Shown piece by piece: positions 1-32,000 of a DNA stretch of 32,000 nt (position 1 is the stretch's first letter; each line of letters starts with the position of its first letter). The position numbers were made by a program, and so were the translations under genes. The DNA comes from Formosa sp. Hel1_33_131 (GTDB lineage Bacteria > Bacteroidota > Bacteroidia > Flavobacteriales > Flavobacteriaceae), in the NCBI RefSeq assembly GCF_001735745.1, contig NZ_CP017260.1:300001-332000 (forward strand). The letters run 5' to 3'. The notes beneath the pieces are model-generated. The model was not told the DNA's origin. It searched no databases and was given only the letters and a program-made list of their open reading frames with translations.

Positions 1-1
1 A

Positions 2-1468
2 CCTTTTGGTTTTAATGGAGATTCTAAGGTCCACACCCCTATTATTGATAACTTAGCAAGTAACGGAATTGTTTTTAACAATGCATTTGTTTCTTCCTCT
101 ATATGCAGCCCAAGTAGGTATAGTATTTTAACAGGAAAATACGCAGGAAGGTCCGAAGGCACTAATTTCTTAAACGGGTATCCCGTAGGGCAATTAAGTC
201 GCGTTGCAAACAATATAGAACTCGAAGAAAATACAGATAATTTACCAAAACTATTACAAGCTGCAGGCTACAATACTGCTTTTATAGGAAAATCTCACAT
301 TGTGGATCATGAATTTTTAAACACCTATACACAAGGCAATTTTGGTTTCATGGCATACGATCAAACCGATGATCCCTATGTAGAAGCAATTTCTGATGCC
401 ATGAAATTTAATCATGATAAATGGGCAGACAGAATTAAAGATTTTGGATTTGATGTTGTGGATGCATTTTATCCCGCAAACTTAAGAGAATTAAAAAATG
501 ATGACTTAAACGTTCACAATGTTGAGTATAAGAATAAAGCGGTTCTCGATTATATTGAGAATGCTAGTGACGACCCTTTCTTTATTTACTACAGTGAAAC
601 GGTGCCTCATGGTCCAGCCCCTTTTTGGTCAAATAATAATAATTTTTATGCCGGTTTAGATTCAGACGTTAATATCACAGCTGAAGGTGTTTTAATACAA
701 GACTATTCGTACTTACCAACACGAGCGCAAATAAAAGATGAAATTTCTAATTTACCTGGAAAGGATATAAAACAAGCTTGGTTGCGTTGGTTTGACCATG
801 CTGTTGGTGCTGTTGTCAGTAAATTAGAGGAAACAGGAAAGTTAGATAACACCATCATCGTTATTACTTCCGATCATGGAGATTTTAACAAAGGGAAATC
901 TACAAATTACGATGCAGGCACAAAAGTACCTTTAATGATCTATTGGCCAGATGGAATTTCGACGCCTTCTACTTACGACGAATTGGTTCAGAATATAGAC
1001 TTCGCCCCTACTTTTTTAGATATTGCGGGTGTAGATATTTCTACTTCAGAGATGGATGGTGTAAGTTTAAAAGAAGTTATTACTAATAATGCTACAGAAG
1101 CTGTTCACGATCATTTATTTTTTGAATTAGGGTTTTCTAGAGCGATTAGAACCAAAGACTGGAAATATGTAACGGTGCGTTATGATGATGCTACAAATCA
1201 AAGAATAGCCGACGGAGACACTTTCAATGGGCCAAACGGAACACAGGTACCTCTACCCTTCTACATCCCAAATGTATCTTTGGGAAGTTTAAGTGCAGCT
1301 GCGTACCCACTGTATCATGTAAAAGACCAATTATTTGATTTAAGCAATGACCCTTATGAAGAAGTCAATCTTTTTGACACTCAATTTGAAATAGCTACAG
1401 AACTAAGGAATACATTAAGAACCGAATTACTTACTTTTATTGACAGACCCTATCAAGAATTTACAGAT
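2..1468 (+). other. Sulfatase module of the fusion protein (paralog of 20401..22041)
   Basis: C-S-P-S-R at 104..118; GKSH, [55 protein letters not shown]. Colinear with the 20401 protein down to RPYQEFTD versus RPYAEFVN-stop. Confidence 0.9.
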
Positions 1469-4108
1469 ACCAGCGTAGATCTAACAGTCACTACAGAAAG
1501 TACTTCAATTTTAGGGAAGGTTTTAGCAGGTTACCAAGGTTGGTTCAATACGCCTACGGATGGTGAAGATTTAAATTGGAAACATTACCAAACCAGTATA
1601 AATGGAGTTAAAAGATTTGAACCTGGCTTTGCCACTTTAGATTTTTGGCCCGATATGAGTGAGGCAGATGCCGATGAAAAATACATCACTACTTTTACAC
1701 ATAAAGATGAAACTGCAGCGCATGTTTTTTCATCTGTAAATACAAAAACAATCAATCGTCATTTTGAATGGATGAATGATTATGGAATCGATGGGGTTTT
1801 CTTTCAACAATTTGCATCGAATCTCAAATCTAATGCACCTAAATTAAAAGCCAATGATAATCTTGTTTTTGATAATATCATAGCAGCTGCTCAGGAAAAT
1901 AACAACAGACTTGTGAGTATTATGTACGATTTATCGGGGTCTAACGCCACTTCAACAATGGTTGAAGACGTGAAACTGCATTGGGAATCCCTTGTTTCAA
2001 GACATGGAGTGAACGATGTCTCAAACAATCATTTATTAACCTACAACCAAAAGCCTGTAGTTGCACTTTGGGGCGTAGGTTTTAATCGAACAGATAATTA
2101 CGATTTAGACGATGTACAAGACTTGATTAACTATTTTAAGAACGATCCAACGTTTGGTGGCTGTTCCGTTTTATTAGGTGTGCCAAGAAGTTGGAGAACA
2201 TTGGACAGTGATGCCGTTAATGACACTCAATTACACACCGTTATAAGATCTGCTGATATTGTACATCCTTGGACGCCTGGGAGGTATAGTAATATCAGTG
2301 GTATCGATAGCCACAAGAATATTATAATTGCGGATAAAGCATGGTGTGATACAGAAAACTTATTATACATGCCTGTCGTTTTTCCAGGGTTTAGCTGGCA
2401 GAATCTAAAGAAAAGCCAAGGCACATTTTCTAGCCTTAACAGTATTCCAAGGTTAAAAGGAGATTTTTTATGGAGACAATTATACAATGCAGTCGATGCC
2501 GGCGCACAAACTCTTTATGTTGCAATGTTTGATGAGATGGACGAAGGGACTTGTATTTTTAAAGTTGATAATAACCCACCGTCAAGTGCATTGACTCAAT
2601 TTACAAACTACGAAGGTTTGCCTAGTGATTATTATTTATGGTTAACAGGAAAAGGTGGTGAAGCTTTGAGAGGAGAAATAGCACTGACCGTGAATCAACC
2701 CATTTATCAAAACTTACCAGAAATTACTGATTATTACGCAGATGAATTTGGAGAGGATAGCAATACAGGAACAAGCCCAGGAACTGCGGTTTCAACTGTT
2801 CATAAAGCTTACTCATTAGCAAACGATGGAAATACAATTAATATATCTGGTACTGTCATACATAATTCTAAAATTTCAGTTCAAAAGAGTCTCAGTTTTA
2901 TTGGCACAGAAAATGCCACAATTTTACCAGATGAGAATAAAGTAGGTACAGACCGGTTGTTTCATATCAGTAGTCCCGATTTGAATGTTTCTTTTTCAGA
3001 CATTACTTTTAAAGGAAACAAAGAATCATCCATTAATGGGGGCGCCATAAATATGAATGCCAACTCTAATTTAACGTTTACCAATAGTGTTTTTGATGAT
3101 AATTCTACAGGCGGCATAGACAAAGCTGGTGGCGGTTTATTTTTTAGTGAAGGAAATGTAACTATTATAAACTCCATTTTCAAAAATAATTTATCTCGAG
3201 GAAACGGAGGCGCCATCAGCGGTTCTGGTGATGGAACGTTAACCATTACGGGGTCTTTATTCATAAATAATACCGCTGCAAATATTAATAAAACGGACGG
3301 AAATGGAGACAGAGCCAATGGTGGTGCCATTAATGTTTATGGAGATGGTAGAGAAGTCATAATGTCTGAAAATACATTTTATAATAACGAGGCAACGTTT
3401 CAAGGTGGTGGTTTATATTTTGGAGGTTTAAATACGACTAATACTTTAGAAAACATAACCATTTTTAGTAACAAAGTAACCTTAACATCAGCAGAATCCG
3501 GAAGAGCGGGAGGAATTAGAATTGAAGGAGATAGAAGTTTCGAGATTAAAAACGCCTTGTTTTATGACAATCGTTTGGGAGATACCGAAAACCCAGAATC
3601 TGATATAAATAGTGCCTCAGCGGTTCAATTAAACTTGATAAATTCATTGTCTGGTAGTTCTGAAGGGTTCGGATCCGATGATGCATATGGCTCTTCAAAA
3701 ATAGACGCCGTTTTGACCTCTTCTAATTTACGTTTTAATGAAACCTCTGGAAAAGTAGAATATGATGAAGCACCAAATGGAGATGACAGTCCTATAGATT
3801 TTGGGGATGATGGGAATGATGCAGGAGCTTGGAACTCAATGTTGGTATTATCTGTTGATGATACTCAAATTTCTAATGATAATTTTGAAGTTCATTTTTA
3901 TAATTTAACCAAAAGTATCAAGGTATTCTCAACGAACAATTTACCATTAGATATAAAAATTTATACGATTCATGGGGCTAGGGTATTAGAGAAAAATCAT
4001 AATAATCCTAAGGAACTTATAAATATAACGCACTTAAAAACAGGTGTTTACATTCTAAATGCAATGGAAAACGGAAAAGAGTTTTCAAAAAAGTTTATTC
4101 TTTATTAA
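2..4108 (+). CDS. Multi-modular secreted enzyme, 5' end cut by the window edge: S1 formylglycine-type sulfatase + GH99/GH71-like glycoside hydrolase + Pmp-like parallel beta-helix + T9SS C-terminal sorting domain
   Basis: The track ORF starts at GTG 302, but the same frame is open back to position 2. There it encodes [53 protein letters not shown], which aligns with residues ~57 onward of the sulfatase at 20401..22041, so the true start lies upstream of the window. CxPxR sulfatase motif at 104..118. Module evidence is listed in the sub-features. Confidence 0.9.
   Translation, partial: [1368 protein letters not shown]
1511..2715 (+). other. GH99/GH71-like (beta/alpha)8 module of the fusion protein (paralog of 11555..12856)
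   Basis: [11 protein letters not shown] (compare the GH99 YYxWY strand-1 motif), [38 protein letters not shown], and [17 protein letters not shown] with ExxE at 2534..2545 (compare GH99 FNEWHEGTQIE). Boundaries are approximate. Confidence 0.7.
2940..3600 (+). other. Parallel beta-helix region with Pmp/PbH1-like repeats
   Basis: Reiterated ~25-30-aa turns carrying GGAI/GGGL plus F-x-(N/D)-N: [136 protein letters not shown]. Boundaries are approximate. Confidence 0.65.
3878..4105 (+). other. T9SS (Por) C-terminal sorting domain
   Basis: The last ~75 aa, [74 protein letters not shown], fit the type-A CTD pattern (I-x-I-Y-x-x-x-G-x-x-V ... L-x-x-G-V-Y-I-L ... K-x-I). Confidence 0.8.
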
Positions 4109-4126: not shown

Positions 4127-5293
4127 ATGTTTAAAAAGAACCTCATCATTTTCTTTGTAAGTTTAGTTCACATTAGTGTGTTTTCTCAAAGTGAGATCAT
4201 CGTTGAAAGTGAAATTGTGGATGTAAACGAGCAACCTCTCGCCTTTACATCCATTAGTATTATGTCTAAATCTATTGGGACAATTAGTAATGAAGACGGT
4301 CGTTTTTATTTGAAATTAACGAAAGAAAATTTAAACGATACGATCACGATTTCTACGCTTGGGTTTAAATCTTTTAAAATAATGGTTCAAGATTTTATAG
4401 ATCAAAAGATTGAAATTGTCACGCTTGAAGAAGACTTGGTATCTCTTGATGAAATCGTCATTCAAGATCCTTCTTCTTATGTGAAATCTGCATTAAAAAA
4501 ACTAAAAGAGACCACCTACAGTAAAGGACATCAATTGAATATTTTATACCGTAGGTTTTCTAATGAAAATAATGTATCACGGTTTTTAGTAGAACATTAT
4601 GTAAAAGTATATGACAATGGACCAACGTCCAGAGAATTTGGACCCATAGAAATTGTAGAAGCTAGAAAGTCTAACGATTATAGATTTGCAAAAAAGAAAC
4701 AGAAATTTCATGCAATTAAAATGATTGCCAAACAAAACCCCTTAAGAATCCGGATTAATCCCAGAAATTACAAATGGAAGATTGTTGATGACACTTCATA
4801 CGATGGCGAAGATGTTATTGTTTTGGAAGGAAAAGTGAAAAACAAAAAAAATAAATGGATCAAATTATACATTGGTTCTGATACAAACAACATCTATAGA
4901 TTAGAAAAATCTGACTTAAATGCTGTATATATTTATAAAAAAACCAAAGATGGAACTATGGTGTTAAGCTACCATAATAGAGAATATGTATTTCGAGAAA
5001 AGGTATCACCCCAAACGAAACGGTTACTTAAATTAAAAGAAGATGAAATTAAACTGTCTTACAGACATGAAGCTATTGTTTTAGGCATTGAAACAAATAG
5101 GAAAAAAATAAGAGTCAGTGAAAATATTAAACCAGGAAAAGATATTGGGGATTACAACTTAAAATACGATTCAGAATTTTGGAAATCAGTCAGCCTACCC
5201 CCCGATTCTAAATTTTATAAAGAAAGTTCCAAACAATTAGAAAACATCTATGGAATTCCTATAGAAACTCAATTTAAAAGAGTCAAAAATTAA
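4127..5293 (+). CDS. Secreted protein of unknown function with a SusC-like N-terminus (carboxypeptidase-regulatory-like domain) but no plug or barrel
   Basis: Signal peptide MFKKNLIIFFVSLVHISVFSQ. Then VDVNEQPLAFTSISIMSKSIGTISNEDGRFYLKL...ITISTLGFKSFKI, the typical CarboxypepD_reg pattern. Then LDEIVI (4445..4462), identical to the hexapeptide at the TonB-box position of the neighbouring SusC (5782..5799). I recognise nothing in the remaining Lys-rich 270 aa. Confidence 0.6.
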   Translation: MFKKNLIIFFVSLVHISVFSQSEIIVESEIVDVNEQPLAFTSISIMSKSIGTISNEDGRFYLKLTKENLNDTITISTLGFKSFKIMVQDFIDQKIEIVTLEEDLVSLDEIVIQDPSSYVKSALKKLKETTYSKGHQLNILYRRFSNENNVSRFLVEHYVKVYDNGPTSREFGPIEIVEARKSNDYRFAKKKQKFHAIKMIAKQNPLRIRINPRNYKWKIVDDTSYDGEDVIVLEGKVKNKKNKWIKLYIGSDTNNIYRLEKSDLNAVYIYKKTKDGTMVLSYHNREYVFREKVSPQTKRLLKLKEDEIKLSYRHEAIVLGIETNRKKIRVSENIKPGKDIGDYNLKYDSEFWKSVSLPPDSKFYKESSKQLENIYGIPIETQFKRVKN

Positions 5294-5478: not shown

Positions 5479-8400
5479 ATGGAAAAAATAAAAATTATTT
5501 TATTGCTTATAATTTTTCCTCTCTTTGTTTTTTCTCAAGAAAACACCATCCAAGGAACTATTACAAATATCATTGGAGAACCTATTCCGGGAGTTACCAT
5601 TCTTTTAGAAGGAACACAAACTGGATCGTCTTCAGATTTTGATGGTAACTACACCATAAACACACAAAATAAAACGGAAGGTGTTTTAGCCTTTAGTTAT
5701 GTAGGCTTCACAACTGTAAAGATTAGTTTTGTTAAAGACAGCAAAACAATCAATGCCGTACTTGAGGAATCTACAGAAGAATTGGATGAGATTGTAATTA
5801 CAGCATTGGGTATAAAGCGCGATAAAAAATCACTTTCTTATTCTACCCAATCCGTAGATTCAGATGATATGAAAGAGGCTCGATCTACAAATTTCTTGAA
5901 TGCTCTCGCAGGAAAAGCTGCCGGTGTTCAAGTTGTGAGCTCCTCTACTCCTACTGGATCCACACGAGTTATTATTAGAGGTCTTACTTCTATTACAGGG
6001 AATAATCAACCTTTATATATTGTGGACGGTATACCGCTTGACAGCTCACCAGGAGATGGTGGAGTTTCCGTTTGGAACGGAGGGGATGATATCGATTTTG
6101 GAAGTCCTATCTCTACATTAAACCCAGACGACATAGATTCTATTCAAGTTTTAAAAGGGGCGAATGCTTCTGCACTTTATGGCTCAAGAGCTTCAAATGG
6201 TGTTATTATTATTACAACTAAAAAAGCCGAAAAAAGCAAAGGGAAAATTAGAGTCAATCTAAATTCAAATTTTTCTGTAATCTCAAATAGAGAATATCCT
6301 TACTATCAGTACGTATATGGTGCAGGAGACAATGCTAGATTAACGCCTAATGTTAGTAAGTTAGACCCTGAAACAGGGCTTCCTCTTGTTGGAGCGTTTA
6401 GAAGAGCTTATGGAATGCCATTTTTAGGGCAACAAGTTTTAGATTATAACGGAGAAGTTGGTACGTATAAACCCAACGTTAATAATGTTAAAGAACTCTA
6501 TAAAGTAGGAACAGTCGCTACTAATACGTTATCCTTTAGTAGAGCGACAGAAAAAAATACATTTCGTTTTTCATATTCTAGCACCTTAGGGGATCATGTG
6601 ATCGACAGAACGGAAAGAGTCAATAGGAATAATGTGGCGGTACGTTTCTCTCAAGAAATTTCTGACAAACTAAAAGTGAATACCAGTTTAATTTATGTGA
6701 ATCAGAGGGTAGACAACAGAATGTATAGAAATGGTAGTGAAAGAAATCCTGCCAACAACTATATGTACATTTTACCTAACATGTCTCAAAATAATTTATT
6801 TCCTTATAAAGATGAAGACAATAATGCCTTTAATTACGAGGGACCTTTTAATAACCCCTACTGGAATATATACGAAAACACAAATCAAGATATCACAAAT
6901 AGAATTGTTGCGAATGTGACTTTAAATTATCAAATTTTAGACGGCTTAAGTCTAAAAACAAGAATAAATGGAGTGATTAATGATGTGGATCGATTTGAAT
7001 TTAACAATATGGGAGCCGCTTATGATCCAAACGGATTGTACAGAGAAATTGCTGTTAAAAGAGAAAACAGGAATTATGAAGCGATCTTAAATTACACCAA
7101 AAAAATCAACAACATTTCAATTGTTTCCCTTTTAGGAGCTAATAGATTTGATTTAAGAACATCTGGAACACGTAAAACTGCCATTTCACTTTTAGAAAGA
7201 AATATCATGAACCTATCAAATGGTGATGAATTTTCTCCTACAGTATATCTTCCAAATAATAAAACAATAAACTCTGTTTTTGGGTCTGTATCTGCAGGTT
7301 TCAATGATACCTATTTTATTGATATTACTGGAAGGAATGATTGGTCGTCTACACTTCCTTCAAACAATAACTCCTATTTTTATCCATCCATTGGTGGTAC
7401 TACAATCTTCACCAAATTCTTACCTATAAATAACATCTTAACATTTGGTAAAGTAAGAGCTTCATTTGCTCAAGTAGGAAATGATACGTCGTTTGACAGA
7501 ATTATCAATAATTATATTGAGGGTGGAAACTACAACAACACACAATGGTTGGCATTACAAAATCAACGAAAAAATTTAGAATTAAAACCAGAACTAACTT
7601 CCTCTACAGAATTTGGTATTGAAACTAAGTTATTTAATAACAGAATTACCTTAGATGCTACTTACTATAGGTCATCCACAAACAATCAAATTGTTCCAGT
7701 ACAAGTAACTCCAACATCAGGTTTTATTTCGAAAATTATCAATGCTGGAGAAATTCAAAATAAAGGGTTGGAATTGTTTCTATCAGCAAAAATATTAACC
7801 AACCAATTTAAATGGGATACCAGTATAAATTGGTCCAAAAATGAATCTTTAGTGGTGTCTCTAGCCGATGGTGTGGATCGATTGTTACTAAGAAATTTCT
7901 TCAATGTTGGAGTGTATGCGGAAGCTGGAGAAACCTTTGGTAACATTAGAGGGAATGCGCAAGCAAAAGACCCCGTATCAGGAACACCTTTAGTTTTACC
8001 TAATGGACGCGTACGTTGGGATGAAGACCAATATTTAGGAAATGCACAAGCAGACTGGATTGGAAGTCTAAGGAACACTTTTTCCTACAAAGGATTTAAT
8101 TTAAACTTTTTAATTGATGTGAAAATGGGGGGAGAGTTATTTTCTGCCACAATGATCAAAGCAGTAAATCATGGGATTCATGCAGAATCTTTACAAGGAA
8201 GAGAAGAATATTTACTTTCATCTCTAATATTAGGAGAAAATAATGATGAGAGACAAGGAGTAGGATTATTTGGTAATAATTATGCAGATGCTGAAAGAGC
8301 TAAAGGAGTTATCTATAGAGGCGCCGCTTTAGGCGTACAAGATGAGGATGGTAATTGGGTTGCTGAAAGAGATGAGGATGGTAATATTGTGTATTCTCAA

Positions 8401-8715
8401 AGATGGCTAAACCCACAACTCTATGGTTTTGATGGTATTCAAGATCAAGGACGATTTGTTTACGATGCTTCTTATGTAAAATTAAGAGAAATTGTTTTTG
8501 GATATACCTTTCCTCCAAGAATGATTAAAAAATTAAAAGGAGTAAAAAACCTTAAACTTTCAGTTGTTGGAAGAGATTTATGGACGATTTATAGAAATAC
8601 ACCTCAAGGAATCGATCCAGAGGCAGGCACAACATCTGGGAATGGTCAAGGGATAGAGTTTGGTTCTTTTTTACCTACAAGAACCCTTGGTGTTAATTTA
8701 AAAATAGTATTTTAA
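5479..8715 (+). CDS. susC: SusC-like TonB-dependent outer-membrane glycan transporter
   Basis: 1078 aa. Signal peptide; carboxypeptidase-regulatory-like domain (IQGTITNIIGEPIPGVTILLEGTQTGSSSDFDGNYTI); TonB box and plug (LDEIVITALGIKRDKKSLSYSTQSV, NALAGKAAGVQV, IRGLTSITGNNQPLYIVDGIPL, IQVLKGANASALYGSRASNGVIIITTKK). C-terminus LGVNLKIVF. SusD-like gene follows after 2 nt. Confidence 0.95.
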   Translation: MEKIKIILLLIIFPLFVFSQENTIQGTITNIIGEPIPGVTILLEGTQTGSSSDFDGNYTINTQNKTEGVLAFSYVGFTTVKISFVKDSKTINAVLEESTEELDEIVITALGIKRDKKSLSYSTQSVDSDDMKEARSTNFLNALAGKAAGVQVVSSSTPTGSTRVIIRGLTSITGNNQPLYIVDGIPLDSSPGDGGVSVWNGGDDIDFGSPISTLNPDDIDSIQVLKGANASALYGSRASNGVIIITTKKAEKSKGKIRVNLNSNFSVISNREYPYYQYVYGAGDNARLTPNVSKLDPETGLPLVGAFRRAYGMPFLGQQVLDYNGEVGTYKPNVNNVKELYKVGTVATNTLSFSRATEKNTFRFSYSSTLGDHVIDRTERVNRNNVAVRFSQEISDKLKVNTSLIYVNQRVDNRMYRNGSERNPANNYMYILPNMSQNNLFPYKDEDNNAFNYEGPFNNPYWNIYENTNQDITNRIVANVTLNYQILDGLSLKTRINGVINDVDRFEFNNMGAAYDPNGLYREIAVKRENRNYEAILNYTKKINNISIVSLLGANRFDLRTSGTRKTAISLLERNIMNLSNGDEFSPTVYLPNNKTINSVFGSVSAGFNDTYFIDITGRNDWSSTLPSNNNSYFYPSIGGTTIFTKFLPINNILTFGKVRASFAQVGNDTSFDRIINNYIEGGNYNNTQWLALQNQRKNLELKPELTSSTEFGIETKLFNNRITLDATYYRSSTNNQIVPVQVTPTSGFISKIINAGEIQNKGLELFLSAKILTNQFKWDTSINWSKNESLVVSLADGVDRLLLRNFFNVGVYAEAGETFGNIRGNAQAKDPVSGTPLVLPNGRVRWDEDQYLGNAQADWIGSLRNTFSYKGFNLNFLIDVKMGGELFSATMIKAVNHGIHAESLQGREEYLLSSLILGENNDERQGVGLFGNNYADAERAKGVIYRGAALGVQDEDGNWVAERDEDGNIVYSQRWLNPQLYGFDGIQDQGRFVYDASYVKLREIVFGYTFPPRMIKKLKGVKNLKLSVVGRDLWTIYRNTPQGIDPEAGTTSGNGQGIEFGSFLPTRTLGVNLKIVF
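8341..8385 (+). repeat. 15-nt direct repeat (gatgaggatggtaat) at 30-nt spacing inside susC, encoding two DEDGN motifs
   Basis: gatgaggatggtaat occurs at 8341..8355 and again at 8371..8385. Translated: QDEDGNWVAERDEDGNIVY. Confidence 0.9.
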
Positions 8716-8717
8716 TT

Positions 8718-10466
8718 ATGGAAAATATGAAGAAAAACAAGAAATACGTTAGCTTAAAATTATCTGTGTTCATAATTTTATTTTCAACATCTTGTACAAA
8801 AGATTTTGAGGAAATCAATACCAATGAGTATATATTTAATGAAGCATCACCAAGTGCCCTTTTTGCTGGAGTTGTAAAAAACACTTTAGACCTCGTTGGT
8901 GGTACTATGAACGATCAATTATACAACACTTACGCTAGTTTCTATGGTGGTAAAGGAGGGCAGTTCAATCGGTATTTTTATACAGAACAAGCACTGGACC
9001 AATACTGGAGAAGATTTTATGTAAATATTCTTAAAAACAATCAAGATATCATTGATAGTTATTCTGATGATTCTAATTATAGCAATAGAGTCTCTATTGC
9101 CAAAATATGGAAGAGTTATGTGTATTCAATTTTAGTATCTACATTTGGACCTGTACCTTATCAGGAGGCATTACAGGGAGAAAACGCAGCTGCTTATGAT
9201 TCTGAAGAATTTATTTATACAGATATTTTAGCTGAATTAAAAACTGCTTTTGAAAATATAGATGCTTCTGGAGACACGTTAGCACAAGATCCTATATTTG
9301 ATGGAGACCTTGATAAATGGAAAAAATTTGCCAATTCACTGCGCTTAAAAATTGCACTTAGAATTTCAGAAGGGTTCCCAGTTTTAGCACAACAACACGG
9401 ATCAGATGCGATGGCAAATGAAGCAAACTTAATTGGTTCAAATGCAGAAAACGCTGTGATGAAATGGGGTTTAGAACAGGAAAATTGGTCATTTAACTAT
9501 TCAAGATACGTTTTTATTGAAGCCAATGATGATGTTGTTCCTTATATGAATTTACATTTTCTTTTAAATCTTAAAACATATAAAGATCCAAGACTTTTTA
9601 AACTCGTAGAACCCTCTAACGATCCAATAACCATTACAGATGTCGTTTTTAGATCTGGATCAACTACAGAACAAATTACAGTAGAATATGAATTACCCTA
9701 TTTTGGAAGGCCTTTGGGTGGAAATGCAGGCGTAGAAGGTTGGGGTCTAAATCAAAATGACAATATATTAAACGGATTAGCAAACAGAAGGTTTAGCAGA
9801 CCTAAATTAGATTTATTTATGGCTCAAGATATGGGGTATAATGTAATCACCTATTCCGAAATAAACTTCATCAAAGCAGAAGCACAGTTAAAAGGTTGGG
9901 GTGGATCTAAATCTGCTGAACAATATTACTATGACGGGATAGAGGCTTCGTTTCAACAATATGGAGCCATTGGAGTCACTGAATATAAAAATAGAGATGG
10001 TATACAATGGGGAACTACGAGTGTAGGAGACAGAGGTTTATTTGGCCTTGTGACAAGCGGTATTTCAAATGATCCTTTAGACAAAATCACAAGACAACGA
10101 TGGCTCGCTAGCTATAACCAAGGTCATGATATTTGGTGCATGCAAAAAAGAACGAGAAAATTACCATTGATCGATCAATTTGCACCGGATGGCGCGACAG
10201 GTCTTGATTACGCACCTTTACCAGAAAGAATGGTTTACCCTCCTTTAAGTGAAGGCGGTCTAAACAATGCTGCATTCCAAGACGCTATTCTTAATTTGGG
10301 AGGAAATACGCTTTACAACCCCCTACAAATGAATAAGTCAGAAGACTATTCTCCAGTTCAATGGGAAACTCTAGTTCCTGAGCTTAACCAAGATTTTGGA
10401 ACAAATTTTTATGGCGATTCTGAAGATGATTTAATTGCTGAAGGCATAGACTACACAATAATTTAA
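8718..10466 (+). CDS. susD: SusD/RagB-family outer-membrane glycan-binding lipoprotein
   Basis: Lipoprotein signal LFSTSC followed by acidic residues (TKDFEEIN). 582 aa, directly downstream of SusC. SusD-like motifs: WKSYVYSILVSTFGPVPY, SLRLKIALRI, INFIKAEAQLKGW, RQRWLASYNQGHDIWCMQKRT. The start could be ATG 8718 or 8727. Confidence 0.9.
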   Translation: MENMKKNKKYVSLKLSVFIILFSTSCTKDFEEINTNEYIFNEASPSALFAGVVKNTLDLVGGTMNDQLYNTYASFYGGKGGQFNRYFYTEQALDQYWRRFYVNILKNNQDIIDSYSDDSNYSNRVSIAKIWKSYVYSILVSTFGPVPYQEALQGENAAAYDSEEFIYTDILAELKTAFENIDASGDTLAQDPIFDGDLDKWKKFANSLRLKIALRISEGFPVLAQQHGSDAMANEANLIGSNAENAVMKWGLEQENWSFNYSRYVFIEANDDVVPYMNLHFLLNLKTYKDPRLFKLVEPSNDPITITDVVFRSGSTTEQITVEYELPYFGRPLGGNAGVEGWGLNQNDNILNGLANRRFSRPKLDLFMAQDMGYNVITYSEINFIKAEAQLKGWGGSKSAEQYYYDGIEASFQQYGAIGVTEYKNRDGIQWGTTSVGDRGLFGLVTSGISNDPLDKITRQRWLASYNQGHDIWCMQKRTRKLPLIDQFAPDGATGLDYAPLPERMVYPPLSEGGLNNAAFQDAILNLGGNTLYNPLQMNKSEDYSPVQWETLVPELNQDFGTNFYGDSEDDLIAEGIDYTII

Positions 10467-10476
10467 GATTTATAAA

Positions 10477-11553
10477 ATGAAAAAACTTAGCTATTTATTT
10501 TTAATGACATTATTTTTAATTTCATTTTCATGTACTGAAGATGATGTAGTAACGGGTGAAGATGGTATCTTAAACTATACCATTCCGAATGTCCCAGTAA
10601 CTTCAGATTATATTGTTGGTGCACAATATTCTACTTTTGGAAGAAGAAGTACAGTTCCTGAAGAACCTAGTATTGGGATTTACAACGGAAATGTAGGGGA
10701 TTCATTAGTTTACATACAACATGTAACTCAGGCACAAACTGCAGGAATAGATTTTTTCATTTTTAGATATCGCTCCGCAAATAATCAAAACCAAAATAAT
10801 GCCGATACCAGATTCATTGATGGTTTACAGGCTGCCTCCAATGCACAAGACGTGAATTTTGCACTTTCCTATAATTTTGGAAATATGGGCTTAAATAACA
10901 ACAATCGTATAGAAGACAGAGGCTTAGTGCAACGATTTATTGATGATTTTAAATTAATGATTCCATATTTTGACCAGCCTAACTACATGAAAATAGATGG
11001 TAAAAACATCGTCTACTTATACAATAGCCACAACCTTCACGCCAACGATAATGCTGCTTTATACCAGCAAATGAGAGCTGAATTATTAGATCTTAACGTT
11101 GAACTCTATTTAATAGGAATGCAAAATGAATGGACTCCAACTTTAAGATTTGACTTTAGGTTTATAAACGGAGTAGATGCTGTGACTCATAACACCTATG
11201 CCACCATTAATGTGAATGCTAATGACAGAGTCGTAAACTTCCATAAGTTTATAGATATCGCTTGGGAATATCATAGAGATACTTGGCTAGGATATAATAT
11301 CGAATACATACCAACAATATCTCCATCTATAAATTTAAAAATAATTAATTCAGGAAGTAACATAACTGTATTTGATAAAGATGAAGATTGGTTTAGAGGT
11401 TTTTCTAATGTAGCCCGAAGAGTTTCTGGTGCTAGTAAAATTATTCTTGTCGATTCTTTTAACGATTGGAATAGAGGAACTCAATTAGAATCTGCAGATA
11501 CTTATGGAGAAGATTTCCTTCAAATTTTAAAAGAAGAATTTAAGACAAATTAA
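10477..11553 (+). CDS. GH99/WbsX-fold lipoprotein with a substituted catalytic dyad; candidate non-catalytic surface glycan-binding protein
   Basis: Lipoprotein signal LISFSC followed by the strongly acidic TEDDVVTGEDG. GH99-like landmarks: PSIGIYNGNVGDSLVYIQHVTQAQTAGIDFFIF, MKIDGKNIVYLY, IPTISPS. ILVDSFNDWNRGTQLE aligns with GH99 SFNEWHEGTQIE, but the two Glu are D (11464..11466) and R (11473..11475). Confidence 0.6.
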   Translation: MKKLSYLFLMTLFLISFSCTEDDVVTGEDGILNYTIPNVPVTSDYIVGAQYSTFGRRSTVPEEPSIGIYNGNVGDSLVYIQHVTQAQTAGIDFFIFRYRSANNQNQNNADTRFIDGLQAASNAQDVNFALSYNFGNMGLNNNNRIEDRGLVQRFIDDFKLMIPYFDQPNYMKIDGKNIVYLYNSHNLHANDNAALYQQMRAELLDLNVELYLIGMQNEWTPTLRFDFRFINGVDAVTHNTYATINVNANDRVVNFHKFIDIAWEYHRDTWLGYNIEYIPTISPSINLKIINSGSNITVFDKDEDWFRGFSNVARRVSGASKIILVDSFNDWNRGTQLESADTYGEDFLQILKEEFKTN

Positions 11554-11554
11554 A

Positions 11555-12856
11555 ATGAAAAAAGAGCTAACTCTATTTATTACTTTCTTTAGTATTTTAC
11601 TTTTAAACAGCTGTAAAAGCAATACAAATAGTGATTCCCTCACTAAAGAAAGTCTTCCGCAAATTAATAACTCCATTGAAGGTAAAATCTTAGCGGGCTA
11701 TCAAGGCTGGTTTAATGCGAAAGGAGATGGTTCAAATTTGAAATGGAAACACTATGGCAACAACGCTGAATTTTATCCAGGAAGTACTTCTGTAGATTTT
11801 TGGCCAGAAATGGACGAAATCAAGAAAAGCAATCAATATAAAACTGCGTTTAAATATAAAGATGATAAACCCGCATTTGTTTTTAGTTCAGCAGATTATA
11901 AAACAGTTGACCTCCATTTTAAATGGATGAAAGATTATGGAATTGATGGTGTATTTGCACAACGTTTTGTGGTGGGTTTAACAAGAGGTCAAAGTAGAAT
12001 TGACAATTATAACACTGTTTTTGACAACTGTTTTAGAGCTGCAAAAAACAACAACAGAATATTGAGTTTAATGTACGATCTTTCAGGAACTACCACTGCT
12101 AATATTGTAGAAACCACTATTAAAGATTGGAAACAACTCGTTAAAAAATACAAGTTAAACGACCCCACAAACCCGAATGTATTAACCTATAAAGGAAAAG
12201 CGGTAGTTTCTCTTTGGGGCGTTGGTTTTGAAAACAGAAAATACACTTTAGAGAATATCAAAGAACTGATTGATTTCTTTAAAAACGATCCGGAATACGG
12301 AAACTGTGCCGTGCTTTTAGGCGTTCCAACAGCGTGGAGGACTTTAGACAGAGATGCCGTTAAGGATCCAAAATTACACGAAGTTATTAAGATGGCAGAT
12401 ATTGTGCATCCATGGACCCCTGGAAGGTATCATAATTTAGAATCCGCAGATCAGCATAAAGCTAACTATACTGTAAAAGATCAGCAATGGTGTTCTGAAA
12501 ATGATTTGATGTATATGCCGGTTGTGTTTCCAGGTTTTAGTTGGGCGAACATGAAAAATGACATGACTATTTTTAATCAAATACCGCGTTTAAAAGGGGA
12601 TTTCTTGTGGAGACAATTTTATAACGCCATTTCTTCTGATGCCAAAACAATTTACGTTGCCATGTTTGATGAAATTGATGAAGGTACTTGTATTTTTAAA
12701 GTAGATAACAACCCTCCTGTAGGGGAAAGTAAATTTCTAACCTATGAAGGGCTACCATCAGATTACTACTTATGGCAAACAGGACAAGCGACCAAAATGT
12801 TGCGTAAAGAAATTCCTCTAACAAAAGAGCAGCCCGTTTATCCTTACGTAAAATAA
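11555..12856 (+). CDS. GH99/GH71-like (beta/alpha)8 glycoside hydrolase lipoprotein; candidate endo-alpha-mannanase
   Basis: Lipoprotein signal LLLNSC. ILAGYQGWFNAKGDG, DYGIDGVFAQRF, SLWGVGF, IVHPWTPGRY, PVVFPGFSW, YVAMFDEIDEGTCIFKVDNNPP (ExxE at 12671..12682). By eye, more than half the residues match the module at 1511..2715. Confidence 0.7.
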   Translation: MKKELTLFITFFSILLLNSCKSNTNSDSLTKESLPQINNSIEGKILAGYQGWFNAKGDGSNLKWKHYGNNAEFYPGSTSVDFWPEMDEIKKSNQYKTAFKYKDDKPAFVFSSADYKTVDLHFKWMKDYGIDGVFAQRFVVGLTRGQSRIDNYNTVFDNCFRAAKNNNRILSLMYDLSGTTTANIVETTIKDWKQLVKKYKLNDPTNPNVLTYKGKAVVSLWGVGFENRKYTLENIKELIDFFKNDPEYGNCAVLLGVPTAWRTLDRDAVKDPKLHEVIKMADIVHPWTPGRYHNLESADQHKANYTVKDQQWCSENDLMYMPVVFPGFSWANMKNDMTIFNQIPRLKGDFLWRQFYNAISSDAKTIYVAMFDEIDEGTCIFKVDNNPPVGESKFLTYEGLPSDYYLWQTGQATKMLRKEIPLTKEQPVYPYVK

Positions 12857-30164: not shown

Positions 30165-30262
30165 ATCAACTGCTACTTTAATTATTAAATAAAACGATTT
30201 CAAATGTTTATAAAAATATCAAAACCAACAAACATTCTTGTAACGTTTTAAAAAAACAGCTC

Positions 30263-32000
30263 ATGATTAAATCAAAACAGAATTTTAAACTCCTACTTCA
30301 TGTAAGTGCACTTACTATTGTTTTTTTTACTTCATTTAGAGTTCAAGGGCAAACCGTAGGCGTAAAAAATGAGGCCTATTTAGTAGATCATGTAAATCCT
30401 TTAATGGGTACAGATTCTAAAAAAAGTATGTCTAACGGAAATACGTATCCTGCAATTGCCACCCCTTGGGGCATGAATTTTTGGACGCCAATGACATCTA
30501 AAATGGGAGATGGCTGGACGTATAATTACGATGATGATAAAATTAGAGGCATCAAACAAACACATCAACCTAGTCCTTGGTTAAATGATTATGCGGCCTT
30601 TTCTTTTATGGCAGTCACAGGTGAATTAAAGTATCAAGAAGATGAAAGAGCTTCATGGTTTTCTCATAAAGCAGAGACGGTAACCCCTTATCATTATAGT
30701 GTCTATCTAGCAGAATATGATGTAGTCGCAGAAGTAGCGCCAACATCGAGAGCTGCACATTTTAAATTTACCTTTCCTGAAGCAGAGTCTTCATACATTA
30801 TGTTAGATGCTTTTTTCAAAGGTTCCATGGTTAAAATTTTACCAGAAAAACGTAAAATTATTGGCTATTGCAGAAACAATAATGGTGGTGTGCCAGATAA
30901 TTTTCATAATTATTTTGTCGCAGAATTTGATAAAGATTTTGAAATGACACACACTTGGAAAGACGATTGGGAACTTCAAAAAAACAACCTCAATAGCGAA
31001 GGAAAACATGTGGGTGCAATCATTGGTTTTAAAACCAAAAAAGGAGAAGTGGTAAACGTAAAAGTAGCCTCCTCTTTTATAAGTTTAGAGCAAGCACAAC
31101 TAAATTTAGATAGAGAAATTGGGAAAAATTCTTTTATAGACACCAAAGAGAAAGCAAAAAATGCTTGGGAAAAGGAACTGAGTAGAATTAAAATTGAAGA
31201 TGATAATAGTAATAACATCAAAACTTTTTATTCTTGCCTATACAGAGTCTTACTATTTCCAAGAACCTTTTATGAGTTTGATACAGATCATAAAATGGTG
31301 CATTACAGTCCATACAATGGAAACGTATTACCAGGTTATATGTTTACAGACAATGGTTTTTGGGATACGTTTAGAGCGGTTTTTCCATTTTTTAATATGA
31401 TGTATCCAGAACAGAATAATAATATTATGGAAGGTTTGGCTAACACCTATAAAGAATCTGGATGGTTGCCCGAATGGGCAAGTCCTGGACACAGAGCTGT
31501 AATGATTGGTTCTAACTCTGCTCCAATTATTGCTGATGCCTATTTAAAAGGAACTATCAAAAATGAAAAAACTGCAGAAATTTTATTTGAAGCCCTACTA
31601 AAAAATGCCACTGTTGAAGAAGGCAGGCCTGTAAGATCTGTGGGGAGAGAAGGATTAAATTATTACAATACTTTAGGCTATGTCCCTTTTGATGTAAATA
31701 TTAGAGAGAATGCTGCCAAAACCTTGGAATATGCCTATGCCGATTTTACAATTGGGCAAATGGCAGAAAAAATGGGAAAAAACAAAATTGCTAAAAAGTA
31801 TTATGAGCAATCGTATCGTTATAAAAATGTATTTGATCCCTCAACAAATTTAATGCGAGGAAAAAATGAAGACGGTACGTTTCAAAGTCCTTTTGATCCA
31901 TTAAAATGGGGGGGTGCTTTTACAGAAGGAAACAGTTTACATTATACTTGGTCTGTTTTTCAAGACATCGATGGATTGATCAACTTAATGGGTGGAAAAG
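30263..32000 (+). CDS. GH92 alpha-mannosidase (third subtype), 3' end cut by the window edge; not in the supplied ORF track
   Basis: I translated by hand from ATG 30263 and found no stop through 32000. MIKSKQNFKLLLHVSALTIVFFTSFRVQGQ (signal), VNPLMGTDSKKSMSNGNTYPAIATPWGMNFWTPMT, IKQTHQPSPWLNDYAAF, FYSCLYRVLLFPRTFYEFD, GFWDTFRAVFPFF, GWLPEWASPGHRAVMIGSNSAPIIADAYLKG, FTEGNSLHYTWSVFQD. Confidence 0.88.
   Translation, partial: MIKSKQNFKLLLHVSALTIVFFTSFRVQGQTVGVKNEAYLVDHVNPLMGTDSKKSMSNGNTYPAIATPWGMNFWTPMTSKMGDGWTYNYDDDKIRGIKQTHQPSPWLNDYAAFSFMAVTGELKYQEDERASWFSHKAETVTPYHYSVYLAEYDVVAEVAPTSRAAHFKFTFPEAESSYIMLDAFFKGSMVKILPEKRKIIGYCRNNNGGVPDNFHNYFVAEFDKDFEMTHTWKDDWELQKNNLNSEGKHVGAIIGFKTKKGEVVNVKVASSFISLEQAQLNLDREIGKNSFIDTKEKAKNAWEKELSRIKIEDDNSNNIKTFYSCLYRVLLFPRTFYEFDTDHKMVHYSPYNGNVLPGYMFTDNGFWDTFRAVFPFFNMMYPEQNNNIMEGLANTYKESGWLPEWASPGHRAVMIGSNSAPIIADAYLKGTIKNEKTAEILFEALLKNATVEEGRPVRSVGREGLNYYNTLGYVPFDVNIRENAAKTLEYAYADFTIGQMAEKMGKNKIAKKYYEQSYRYKNVFDPSTNLMRGKNEDGTFQSPFDPLKWGGAFTEGNSLHYTWSVFQDIDGLINLMGGK

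What the first reader, a model, noticed from the sequence alone, without database searches (positions are those of the whole stretch)
10477..11553. GH99-fold lipoprotein with the catalytic ExxE changed to DxxR in the post-SusD position: candidate glycan-binding pseudo-enzyme
Seen: the protein keeps GH99/WbsX-like landmarks (AGIDFFIF, KIDGKNIVYLY, IPTISPS). Where GH99 has FNEWHEGTQIE it has FNDWNRGTQLE (11461..11481). Established (from my memory of Bacteroides GH99 structural and mechanistic work): the two Glu of ExxE are the catalytic pair. Here they are Asp and Arg. Its lipobox Cys is followed by TEDDVVTGEDG. An acidic stretch right after the Cys resembles the Bacteroidota lipoprotein surface-export signal. 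The gene sits directly after susD, where SusE/F-type surface glycan-binding proteins are usually encoded. Inference: this is a catalytically disabled GH99-like domain recruited as the PUL's surface glycan-binding protein. The introduced Arg could contact a sulfate group.
Basis: partly seen in the sequence, partly recalled or inferred. Interest (0 to 1): 0.7.

Follow-up and report, generated by a model that had tools for sequence, protein, structure and literature searches.

The report
Dead GH99-like lipoprotein beside SusD
The gene after susD in this marine sulfated-mannan locus encodes a lipoprotein with a mannanase-like barrel whose catalytic residues have been lost across its whole family, so it is most likely a surface sugar-binding helper of the SusC/SusD transporter, although binding itself is untested.

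Summary
ORF 10477..11553 (358 aa) is a GH99/WbsX-like (β/α)8 lipoprotein. D330 and R333 align with the two catalytic Glu of GH99.

- **Locus.** The window is syntenic with the published diatom C6-sulfated α-1,3-mannan PUL of Polaribacter. By inference the target is orthologous to Pb1063 ('GH99-like'). That paper says the enzymes it did not characterise appeared inactive.
- **Structure.** The Ochrovirga pacifica orthologue already has an unpublished crystal structure, 5NGW ('Glycoside hydrolase-like protein').
- **Family-wide loss.** None of 114 close homologues or 33 genome loci has ExxE. Position 330 is D or N and position 333 is hypervariable. Two further acidic positions conserved in ExxE relatives are also replaced.
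- **Position.** The gene directly follows SusC-SusD in every locus with readable upstream sequence, from Flavobacteriia to gut Bacteroides.
- **Export signal.** The lipobox Cys and a following acidic export-signal-like motif are conserved.
- **Selection.** dN/dS is about 0.13, the same as for SusD.

The best reading is a non-catalytic, surface-exposed accessory of SusCD in the SusE/SGBP slot. The idea that the Arg contacts sulfate is not supported, because the Polaribacter orthologue has Asn there. Binding and surface exposure remain inferred.

The parts
10477..11553 (+). Target gene: a 358-aa GH99/WbsX-like (β/α)8 lipoprotein without the catalytic Glu pair. It is the orthologue of O. pacifica OpGH99A (PDB 5NGW) and, by inference, of Polaribacter Pb1063.
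10477..10533 (+). Signal peptide with lipobox (MKKLSYLFLMTLFLISFSC). Cys19 is nt 10531-10533.
   Evidence: Cys19 is at least 90% conserved in alignment A1. N-termini of 114 homologues and 33 genome loci.
10534..10548 (+). TEDDV at +2..+6 after the Cys: a polar residue followed by three acidic residues, which resembles the lipoprotein export signal. AF2 predicts residues 19-26 as a disordered tether.
   Evidence: The family consensus is C-T/S-E-D-D/N/K. The export-signal definition is from PMC5080379. pLDDT is below 50 for residues 19-26.
11458..11490 (+). FNDWNRGTQLE, the counterpart of GH99 FNEWHEGTQIE. D330 (11464-11466) and R333 (11473-11475) occupy the two catalytic Glu positions. N329, W331, Q336 and E338 are invariant and N332 is nearly so (113 of 114).
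10873..10875 (+). N133 at the end of β3. ExxE-bearing relatives have Glu here in 87% of clusters.
11119..11121 (+). M215 at the end of β5. ExxE-bearing relatives have Asp here in 92% of clusters.
8718..10466 (+). SusD-like lipoprotein (its Cys is followed by TKDFEE). Its stop codon lies 10 nt before the target's start.
5479..8715 (+). SusC-like TonB-dependent transporter.
11555..12856 (+). Lipoprotein paralogue of the GH195 domain (56% identity to the ORF1 domain). It keeps FDEIDEGT (ExxE) and starts 1 nt after the target's stop codon.
2..4108 (+). Homologue of PbSulf1-GH195 (S1 sulfatase, GH195 endo-mannanase domain and T9SS tail). It runs off the 5' end of the window.

Best explanation
The gene encodes a pseudo-glycosidase. 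It has a GH99/WbsX-type (β/α)8 barrel that has lost the family's catalytic carboxylates, and it is made as a lipoprotein. Its N-terminal Cys-T-E-D-D motif most likely sends it to the outer face of the outer membrane.

There it most likely works as the accessory protein of the SusC/SusD transporter of this sulfated α-1,3-mannan locus, in the slot usually held by SusE/SusF-type surface glycan-binding proteins. In this reading the former active-site cleft holds mannan chains, or the oligosaccharides released by the secreted Sulf1-GH195 enzyme, and passes them to SusCD without cutting them. That site is now lined by conserved Tyr, Trp, Asn, Gln, Ser and Arg.

Shown here:
- the fold
- the loss of the catalytic residues
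- the family-wide conservation of the lipobox and acidic motif
- the invariant position after SusD
- purifying selection

Inferred: surface exposure, glycan binding, and association with SusCD.
For: (1) D330 and R333 align to the catalytic Glu pair of Bt GH99 and human MANEA. The GH99-like fold is confirmed.

(2) No ExxE occurs in 114 homologues that are at least 47% identical, or in 33 genome loci down to 28-35% identity. Position 330 is D 97 / N 17 and position 333 is hypervariable.

(3) A search of the whole representative library splits the superfamily. The roughly 50 nearest 50%-identity clusters lack ExxE and are mostly lipoproteins. More distant clusters have (T)S[FW]NEWHE and pass the Pfam GH99 threshold. 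The ExxE group also conserves E133 and D215, which are N and M in the target.

(4) Acidic-motif lipoproteins make up 34 of 67 non-ExxE clusters but only 4 of 71 ExxE clusters, Fisher p = 2e-9.

(5) The gene lies directly after SusC-SusD in all 31 genome loci with upstream sequence and in 10 further loci. These include O. pacifica and the gut species Bacteroides difficilis. Downstream genes vary. SusD identity and target identity to the window proteins co-vary with r = 0.97.

(6) Among six lipobox proteins in the window, only SusD and the target have acidic residues after the Cys. The motif fits the published export-signal rule of a polar or basic residue followed by at least two D/E (PMC5080379).

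(7) dN/dS is 0.12-0.13, against 0.13-0.15 for SusD.

(8) PMC13063451 states that the uncharacterised enzymes of the Polaribacter PUL were cloned, tested and appeared inactive on the mannan. Its Table S3 lists Pb1063 'GH99-like'. The PDB depositors titled the orthologue's structure 'Glycoside hydrolase-like protein'.
Against: - No binding or localisation data exist.
- The published negative activity result comes from a lysate-based preliminary screen on one substrate. The individual table cells for Pb1063 could not be read.
- That paper lists the predicted localisation of Pb1063 as 'none', which conflicts with the clear lipobox seen here.
- The DSFN[DN]WN motif and E338 are strongly conserved, which would also fit a non-canonical enzyme.
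- A crude comparison of conservation on the catalytic face against the opposite face of the barrel showed no enrichment.
- The mature protein is acidic (pI 4.7), which is not what one would naively expect for a binder of a polyanion.
- I could not inspect coordinates, so I have not confirmed that a cleft persists.
Confidence: 0.55

Rival explanations
1. It is still an enzyme. It would be a surface glycosidase, or another glycan-modifying enzyme, that uses catalytic residues other than the GH99 Glu pair. It would act on a linkage or decoration that the published screen did not probe, for example a branch sugar of the diatom exudate.
For: - D330 is Asp in 85% of close homologues, and E338 and the DSFN[DN]WN motif are almost invariant.
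- Strong purifying selection.
- Surface endo-enzymes can also be encoded next to susD.
- The published negative result is a preliminary lysate screen on one polysaccharide.
- The mannan carries minor xylose-like branch signals (legends of Figs S20-S23).
Against: - Position 330 is Asn in 17 of 114 homologues, including OpGH99A and the Polaribacter-type orthologue.
- Position 333 ranges over R, K, L, I, A, F, Y and N.
- E133 and D215, conserved in ExxE relatives, are also lost.
- No acidic position other than E338 is constant across the wider lipoprotein clade, and E338 is conserved in true GH99 as well.
- The top-face residues that are at least 95% conserved are Y, R, Q, W, S and N, with no carboxylate pair.
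Confidence: 0.17
2. It is a non-catalytic structural or regulatory partner of the SusCD complex, or of the neighbouring GH195 lipoprotein. It would work through protein-protein contacts and would not itself bind glycan. It could face either side of the outer membrane.
For: - The linkage to SusC-SusD is absolute, while the CAZyme content of the loci changes.
- Its identity co-varies with that of SusD.
- The barrel face that was the active site is not more conserved than the rest of the protein.
Against: - Residues of the kind that usually contact sugars are invariant at the C-terminal ends of the β-strands (Y51, Y132, Q216, W219, Y241, N329, W331, N332).
- The acidic export-signal-like motif argues for surface exposure.
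- The GH195-like neighbour is absent from many loci that keep this gene.
Confidence: 0.2
3. It is a decaying relic of a former GH99-like enzyme with no present function.
For: The catalytic residues are lost.
Against: - The reading frame is intact in more than 140 homologues.
- dN/dS is about 0.13.
- 29 columns are invariant across 114 sequences.
- Synteny is conserved across classes of Bacteroidota.
Confidence: 0.02

Closest known systems
OpGH99A of Ochrovirga pacifica (PDB 5NGW, 'Glycoside hydrolase-like protein', released 2018; WP_010136367.1)
   Same: Orthologue. phmmer E=1e-63 and family-profile E=4e-100; the AF2 model matches it with TM 0.86. It is also a lipoprotein (Cys followed by NKEDE), also lies directly after SusD in the O. 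pacifica mannan locus, and also lacks ExxE, with SFNNWNIGTQIE.
   Different: About 37-50% identity. The two key positions are N and I rather than D and R. I found no paper describing the structure or any function.
GH99 endo-α-1,2-mannosidases/mannanases (BtGH99 4ACY, BxGH99 4AD1, human MANEA 6ZDC)
   Same: Same (β/α)8 fold (Foldseek E about 1e-14, TM about 0.6). Shared motifs are IP(S/T)xxP and SFNxWxxGTQxE. N329, W331, Q336 and E338 are kept.
   Different: Both catalytic Glu are replaced. The Pfam GH99 score is below threshold. Identity is 12-16%. The target is a lipoprotein encoded in the SusE slot.
GH195 endo-C6-sulfate-α-1,3-mannanase (PbSulf1-GH195, PMC13063451)
   Same: Same locus and same distant GH99-like superfamily. 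Two GH195 copies flank the target's operon segment.
   Different: Only 22% identity over 266 aa (E 0.012) to the GH195-like neighbour. The GH195 copies keep FDE(I/M)DEGT, and GH195 is a demonstrated enzyme.
SusE/SusF and other 'SusE-positioned' surface glycan-binding proteins (SGBP-B) of Bacteroidota PULs and utilisomes
   Same: The gene lies immediately downstream of susD, the product is a lipoprotein with an export-signal-like N-terminus, no catalytic machinery is present, and it is followed by an endo-enzyme lipoprotein gene. This is the same order as in the levan and dextran utilisomes (my knowledge of White et al. 2023, PMC7618045, which was listed but not read).
   Different: As far as I know, characterised SGBPs are built from β-sandwich/Ig-like and CBM-like domains, not from a glycosidase-derived TIM barrel. 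Binding has not been shown for this protein.
Glycosidase-derived lectins such as the GH18 chitinase-like lectins (chi-lectins) of eukaryotes (from my own knowledge)
   Same: A TIM-barrel glycosidase fold keeps its sugar-binding groove after losing the catalytic acid.
   Different: Unrelated family, organisms and cellular context. This is an analogy only.

Membership tests
CAZy GH99 (endo-α-1,2-mannosidase/mannanase) | Sequence membership: Pfam PF16317 at or above its gathering score | tested here: not met
   22.3 bits against a cut-off of 33
CAZy GH99 (endo-α-1,2-mannosidase/mannanase) | (β/α)8 fold superposable on GH99 structures | tested here: met
   Foldseek E about 1e-14, TM 0.56-0.64 to Bx/Bt GH99 and MANEA
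CAZy GH99 (endo-α-1,2-mannosidase/mannanase) | Catalytic Glu pair in NEWHEG (BxGH99 E333/E336; MANEA E404) | tested here: not met
   D330 and R333 at the aligned positions; no family member has ExxE
CAZy GH99 (endo-α-1,2-mannosidase/mannanase) | Endo-α-mannosidase activity | not testable with these tools
   The published screen of the Polaribacter PUL reports the uncharacterised enzymes as inactive on sulfated mannan. The table cells for Pb1063 were not legible.
Pfam PF14307 Glyco_tran_WbsX (GH99-like superfamily) | Score at or above the gathering threshold | tested here: met
   38.7 bits against 25.1, but the match covers only residues 157-350
OpGH99A / 5NGW family (post-SusD GH99-like lipoproteins) | Full-length homology to 5NGW, degenerate DSFN[DN]W motif, lipobox, gene directly after susD | tested here: met
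GH195 (endo-C6-sulfate-α-1,3-mannanase) | Close similarity to the GH195 domain of PbSulf1-GH195 and a retained FDExDEG motif | tested here: not met
   22% identity, E 0.012 to the GH195-like neighbour. The neighbour itself is 56% identical to the ORF1 GH195 domain.
SusE-positioned surface glycan-binding protein (SGBP) | Encoded immediately downstream of susD in a PUL | tested here: met
   10-nt gap in the window; true of all 31 genome loci with upstream sequence and 10 other loci
SusE-positioned surface glycan-binding protein (SGBP) | Outer-membrane lipoprotein with a surface export signal | tested here: inconclusive
   The lipobox Cys19 with TEDD fits the published export-signal rule and is conserved. 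No signal-peptide predictor or localisation experiment was available, and the published table gives 'none' for Pb1063.
SusE-positioned surface glycan-binding protein (SGBP) | Binds the PUL's target glycan without degrading it | not testable with these tools
   The absence of catalytic residues is shown. Binding is untested.
SusE-positioned surface glycan-binding protein (SGBP) | Physical association with the SusCD complex (utilisome) | not testable with these tools
   Only indirect evidence: invariant synteny and co-varying divergence, r = 0.97

The most novel reading that the evidence does not exclude
A widespread, ancient clade of GH99/WbsX-derived pseudo-glycosidases forms a previously unrecognised structural class of SusE-slot surface glycan-binding proteins. 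The clade holds at least about 50 clusters at 50% identity and spans Flavobacteriia, Cytophagia, Chitinophagia and gut Bacteroides. Its members would be TIM-barrel 'dead enzymes' that dock to SusCD and capture substrate. The hypervariable former catalytic positions (330, 333, 133, 215) would then act as specificity determinants for the different glycans of the different PULs.
Probability: 0.4. Interest if true: 0.7.

Novelty: new variant of a known kind. Interest (0 to 1): 0.52.

Why it matters
This locus degrades a diatom-exuded C6-sulfated α-1,3-mannan that was recently shown to select specific bloom-associated Bacteroidota. The enzymatic cascade is solved, but how the glycan is captured and handed to SusCD is not addressed, and the post-SusD gene is left as an inactive 'GH99-like' protein.

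If this family is the glycan-capture component, three things follow:
- It would complete the uptake model for an ecologically important marine glycan.
- It would give meaning to an orphan crystal structure (5NGW).
- It would add a glycosidase-derived TIM barrel to the known SGBP architectures.

It also has a practical use for annotation. Automated CAZyme pipelines that count 'GH99-like' hits as endo-mannanases would overcount enzymes in these loci. The DSFN[DN]W motif together with a lipobox and a position after SusD gives a simple rule to flag the non-catalytic members.

Tried and rejected
1. **Arg333 as a sulfate ligand: rejected as a general feature.** The position is hypervariable. It is Asn in the Polaribacter-type orthologue and Tyr in a sulfatase-rich locus. 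If a conserved basic residue matters, the nearly invariant R99 at the end of β2 is a better candidate, but this is speculation.

2. **Conservation on the two barrel faces: no difference.** I compared residues at and just after the β-strand C-termini with those at the N-termini in alignment A1. Mean identity was 0.70 on both faces (Mann-Whitney p = 0.83). The test is too crude without coordinates and proved inconclusive.

3. **Literature searches.** Searches for OpGH99A, 5NGW and 'GH99-like' found no paper on this protein. A search for natural pseudo-glycosidase SGBPs found no clear precedent, but the library is limited to open-access papers.

5. **NCBIfam** has no model that matches the protein.

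6. **Pseudogene or relic: rejected**.

7. **Membership of GH195: rejected**.

8. **Link between R/K at position 333 and nearby sulfatases.** The 6-10 kb flanks are too short for a fair test. The few informative loci argue against a link.
Full report
**1. The observation**

ORF 10477..11553 (+) encodes 358 aa. It starts 10 nt after the stop codon of a SusD-like gene (8718..10466). It ends 1 nt before the start of the next gene. FNDWNRGTQLE is residues 328-338 (nt 11458..11490), with D330 at nt 11464-11466 and R333 at nt 11473-11475.

The protein matches Pfam PF14307 (WbsX) above threshold, at 38.7 against 25.1 bits. It matches PF16317 (GH99) only below threshold, at 22.3 against 33 bits. HMMER alignments of the protein, and of a 114-sequence family profile, were made to the solved GH99 enzymes. 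These place sfnDwnRgtqle on sfnEwhEgtqie of BtGH99 (4ACY) and human MANEA (6ZDC). They also place it on sfnQwhEgtqie of the deliberately inactivated MANEA E404Q variant (6ZFN).

An AlphaFold2 model built from the family alignment has pLDDT 92.6 and pTM 0.88. It shows a (β/α)8-type alternation of strands and helices. Foldseek matches it to Bx/Bt GH99 and MANEA with E about 1e-14 and TM about 0.6. One correction applies: by family thresholds the protein is 'GH99-like', not a GH99.

**2. The locus is a known one**

Pfam annotation of the whole window gives the following genes in order:
- a partial sulfatase + GH99-like + T9SS-tail protein (running off the 5' end, to 4108)
- a CarboxypepD_reg-only protein
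- SusC
- SusD
- the target
- a second GH99-like lipoprotein
- two GH92
- an MFS transporter
- two sulfatases
- an esterase
- a sulfatase
- a phosphomannose isomerase
- a GH92
- a sulfatase
- a further GH92 that runs off the 3' end

This is the gene order of the C6-sulfated α-1,3-mannan PUL of Polaribacter sp. Hel1_33_78, described in Microbiome 2026 (PMC13063451). There, PbSulf1-GH195 (Pb1059), one GH92 and one sulfatase degrade a diatom-exuded mannan. The GH195 domain is described as distantly related to GH99.

That paper's Table S3 lists Pb1063 and Pb1064 as 'GH99-like'. [quoted passage not shown] From the locus-tag order and the identical synteny in a Polaribacter contig, I infer that the target is the orthologue of Pb1063.

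The neighbouring gene 11555..12856 is 56% identical to the GH195 domain of ORF1 and keeps FDEIDEGT. The target is only 22% identical to it (E 0.012).

**3. A solved but unpublished orthologue**

The best PDB match is 5NGW, 'OpGH99A', whose entry title is 'Glycoside hydrolase-like protein' (released 2018). The scores are E=1e-63 for the single sequence, 4e-100 for the family profile, and TM 0.86 for the model. It is O. pacifica WP_010136367.1.

In the O. pacifica genome it lies directly after SusC-SusD and before a GH195-like gene and two GH92 genes. Its motif is SFNNWNIGTQIE, with Asn and Ile at the two Glu positions. I found no paper that describes it.

**4. The loss of catalytic residues is family-wide and old**

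In 114 homologues of 47-91% identity, position 330 is Asp in 97 and Asn in 17. Position 333 is R 35, K 18, L 15, I 11, A 9, F 8 and others. The flanking residues S327, N329, W331, Q336 and E338 are invariant, and N332 is nearly so at 113 of 114. In 33 genome loci spanning 28-94% identity the motif is DSFN[DN]W[NA]x, and none has ExxE. These loci come from Flavobacteriaceae, Crocinitomicaceae, Cyclobacteriaceae, Persicobacter, Marinoscillum, Chitinophagaceae, Bacteroidales and a gut Porphyromonadaceae.

A profile search of 1.84 billion representative proteins found 1458 relatives. The roughly 50 closest clusters lack ExxE. The more distant ones carry (T)S[FW]NEWHE and pass the Pfam GH99 threshold.

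Comparing the two groups column by column shows further differences. The ExxE group also conserves W98 (96%), E133 (87%), Y182 (89%), D215 (92%) and T326 (87%). The target has Y98, N133, Y182, M215 and D326. All four acidic positions conserved in the presumably active relatives are therefore replaced in the target, and they are relaxed across its clade.

The gene is not decaying. dN/dS against three close relatives is 0.12-0.13, the same as for the adjacent SusD at 0.13-0.15.

**5. Evidence on where it goes and what it works with**

Nearly all homologues start with a K-rich n-region, a hydrophobic stretch and a lipobox Cys. The Cys is followed by T/S-E-D-D/N/K or a similar acidic run. AF2 predicts residues 19-26 as a disordered tether.

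The published Bacteroidota lipoprotein export signal is two acidic residues preceded by a polar or basic residue, close to the Cys. Examples are C. canimorsus C-X-K-(D/E)2, B. fragilis SDDDD and F. johnsoniae SDDFE (PMC5080379). C-T-E-D-D fits this rule.

Six proteins in the window have a lipobox. Only SusD (C-TKDFEE) and the target have acidic residues there. The GH195-like protein, a GH92 and two sulfatases have K/S/N/T-rich sequences instead. Across the superfamily, acidic-motif lipoproteins account for 34 of 67 non-ExxE clusters but only 4 of 71 ExxE clusters (Fisher p = 2e-9).

Synteny is the strongest signal:
- In all 31 genome loci with readable upstream sequence, and in 10 further metagenome or genome loci, the gene lies directly after SusC-SusD.
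- The downstream genes change. They are GH195-like plus GH92 in Flavobacteriia. In Cytophagia and Chitinophagia they include T9SS cadherin/LamG proteins, a PQQ propeller, a SASA esterase, GH2 or unknown proteins. In the gut species Bacteroides difficilis they are DUF5010/CBM35, GH3 and GH43.
- SusD identity and target identity to the window proteins co-vary with r = 0.97 over 26 loci.

The order SusC - SusD - X - endo-enzyme lipoprotein is the same as in the characterised levan and dextran utilisomes, where X is the surface glycan-binding protein. This last point rests on my own knowledge of that literature.

**6. Interpretation**

Hydrolysis by the GH99 mechanism is excluded for this family, because the acid and base positions are not maintained. 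The most economical reading is a pseudo-glycosidase kept as a surface-exposed accessory of SusCD, most likely binding the glycan in the former active-site cleft. The residues that are at least 95% conserved at the strand C-termini are Y51, R99, Y132, Q216, W219, Y241, S284, N329, W331 and N332. This is a sugar-binding-like set without a carboxylate pair. I put this reading at about 0.55.

Three alternatives remain:
- It is still an enzyme with other catalytic residues or another substrate (0.17). The published negative result is only a lysate screen on one substrate.
- It is a protein-protein partner of SusCD without glycan binding (0.2).
- It is a relic (0.02), which refute.

The Polaribacter-type orthologue has Asn at both 330 and 333. 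A sulfatase-rich locus has Tyr at 333, and OpGH99A has Ile.

**7. Caveats**

- No coordinates were accessible, so I have not verified cleft geometry.
- A crude test of conservation on the two barrel faces was uninformative.
- The mature protein is acidic, with pI 4.7.
- The published table gives 'none' as the predicted localisation of Pb1063. This conflicts with the lipobox seen in every homologue here and should be rechecked against the gene start.

**8. Novelty and score**

The locus, the 'GH99-like' label and an orthologue's structure already exist. Four things appear to be new, as far as the searchable literature shows:
- the family-level demonstration that this is a large, ancient clade with a degenerate active site
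- its strict tie to SusCD
- its export-signal-like lipoprotein N-terminus
- the resulting functional proposal of a TIM-barrel pseudo-enzyme in the SGBP slot

I rate it a new variant of a known kind, with interest about 0.5. It is readily testable and ecologically relevant, but the function is inferred and the concept of diverse SGBPs is established.

Noticed in passing
window 11555-12856 (+): A second copy of the newly defined GH195 endo-mannanase family, encoded as a stand-alone lipoprotein (LLNSC followed by KSNTNSD, with no acidic motif). It is 56% identical to the GH195 domain of the T9SS tandem enzyme in ORF1 and to the O. pacifica gene after OpGH99A. It keeps FDEIDEGT. The published study lists its Polaribacter counterpart (Pb1064) only as an uncharacterised 'GH99-like' protein.
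   Followed up: partly
window 4127-5293 (+): A 388-aa protein whose only recognisable part is an N-terminal CarboxypepD_reg-like domain, equivalent to SusC N-terminal positions 3-83 of TIGR04056, with no plug or barrel. It sits between Sulf1-GH195 and SusC, and the same arrangement is found in Polaribacter contigs (L001, L002). Its function is unknown.
   Followed up: partly
window 1-4108 and 30182-32000: Both ends of the window cut genes. The Sulf1-GH195-T9SS gene is open from position 2, so its sulfatase N-terminus is missing. A fourth GH92 gene (at least 606 aa shown) runs off the 3' end.
   Followed up: yes
window N-termini of 8718, 10477, 11555, 12868, 23223, 28578: Six proteins have a lipobox Cys. 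Only SusD (C-TKDFEE) and the target (C-TEDDVV) have acidic residues right after it. The others have K/S/N/T-rich sequences, which suggests that only these two are exported to the surface.
   Followed up: partly
PMC13063451 Table S3, compared with window 10477-10533 and homologues: The published table gives predicted localisation 'none' for Pb1063 and Pb1064. Every homologue examined here, including a Polaribacter one (P0049: MKTINKFIILITLLAGYSC-TEDN), has a clear signal peptide and lipobox. The annotated start codon in that genome may be wrong, or the prediction was missed.
   Followed up: no
L029 7233-11894, L042 8670-13034; L004/L005 1546-4071, L008 2221-4860, L044 1722-4307: In distant loci the SusC-SusD-X trio is accompanied by very large T9SS-secreted proteins with cadherin/LamG/Big domains downstream. 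In other loci an 840-880-aa Kelch-type β-propeller protein lies just upstream of SusC. These recurring partners are uncharacterised.
   Followed up: no
P0143-P0169 (representative clusters), L044 10001-11365, L040 5977-7299: A subclade of 420-460-aa homologues carries an extra 70-100 residues at the N-terminus. It includes Bacteroides difficilis and a gut Porphyromonadaceae. One member (L044) matches no Pfam model at all, yet still lies directly after SusD.
   Followed up: partly
A1 column for target residue 99 (window 10771-10773): Arg99, at the C-terminal end of β2, is conserved in 112 of 114 homologues. ExxE-bearing relatives instead have a conserved S-W-x-G at positions 97-100. This is a family-specific basic residue on the former catalytic face and a better candidate than R333 for contacting an anionic group.
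   Followed up: no
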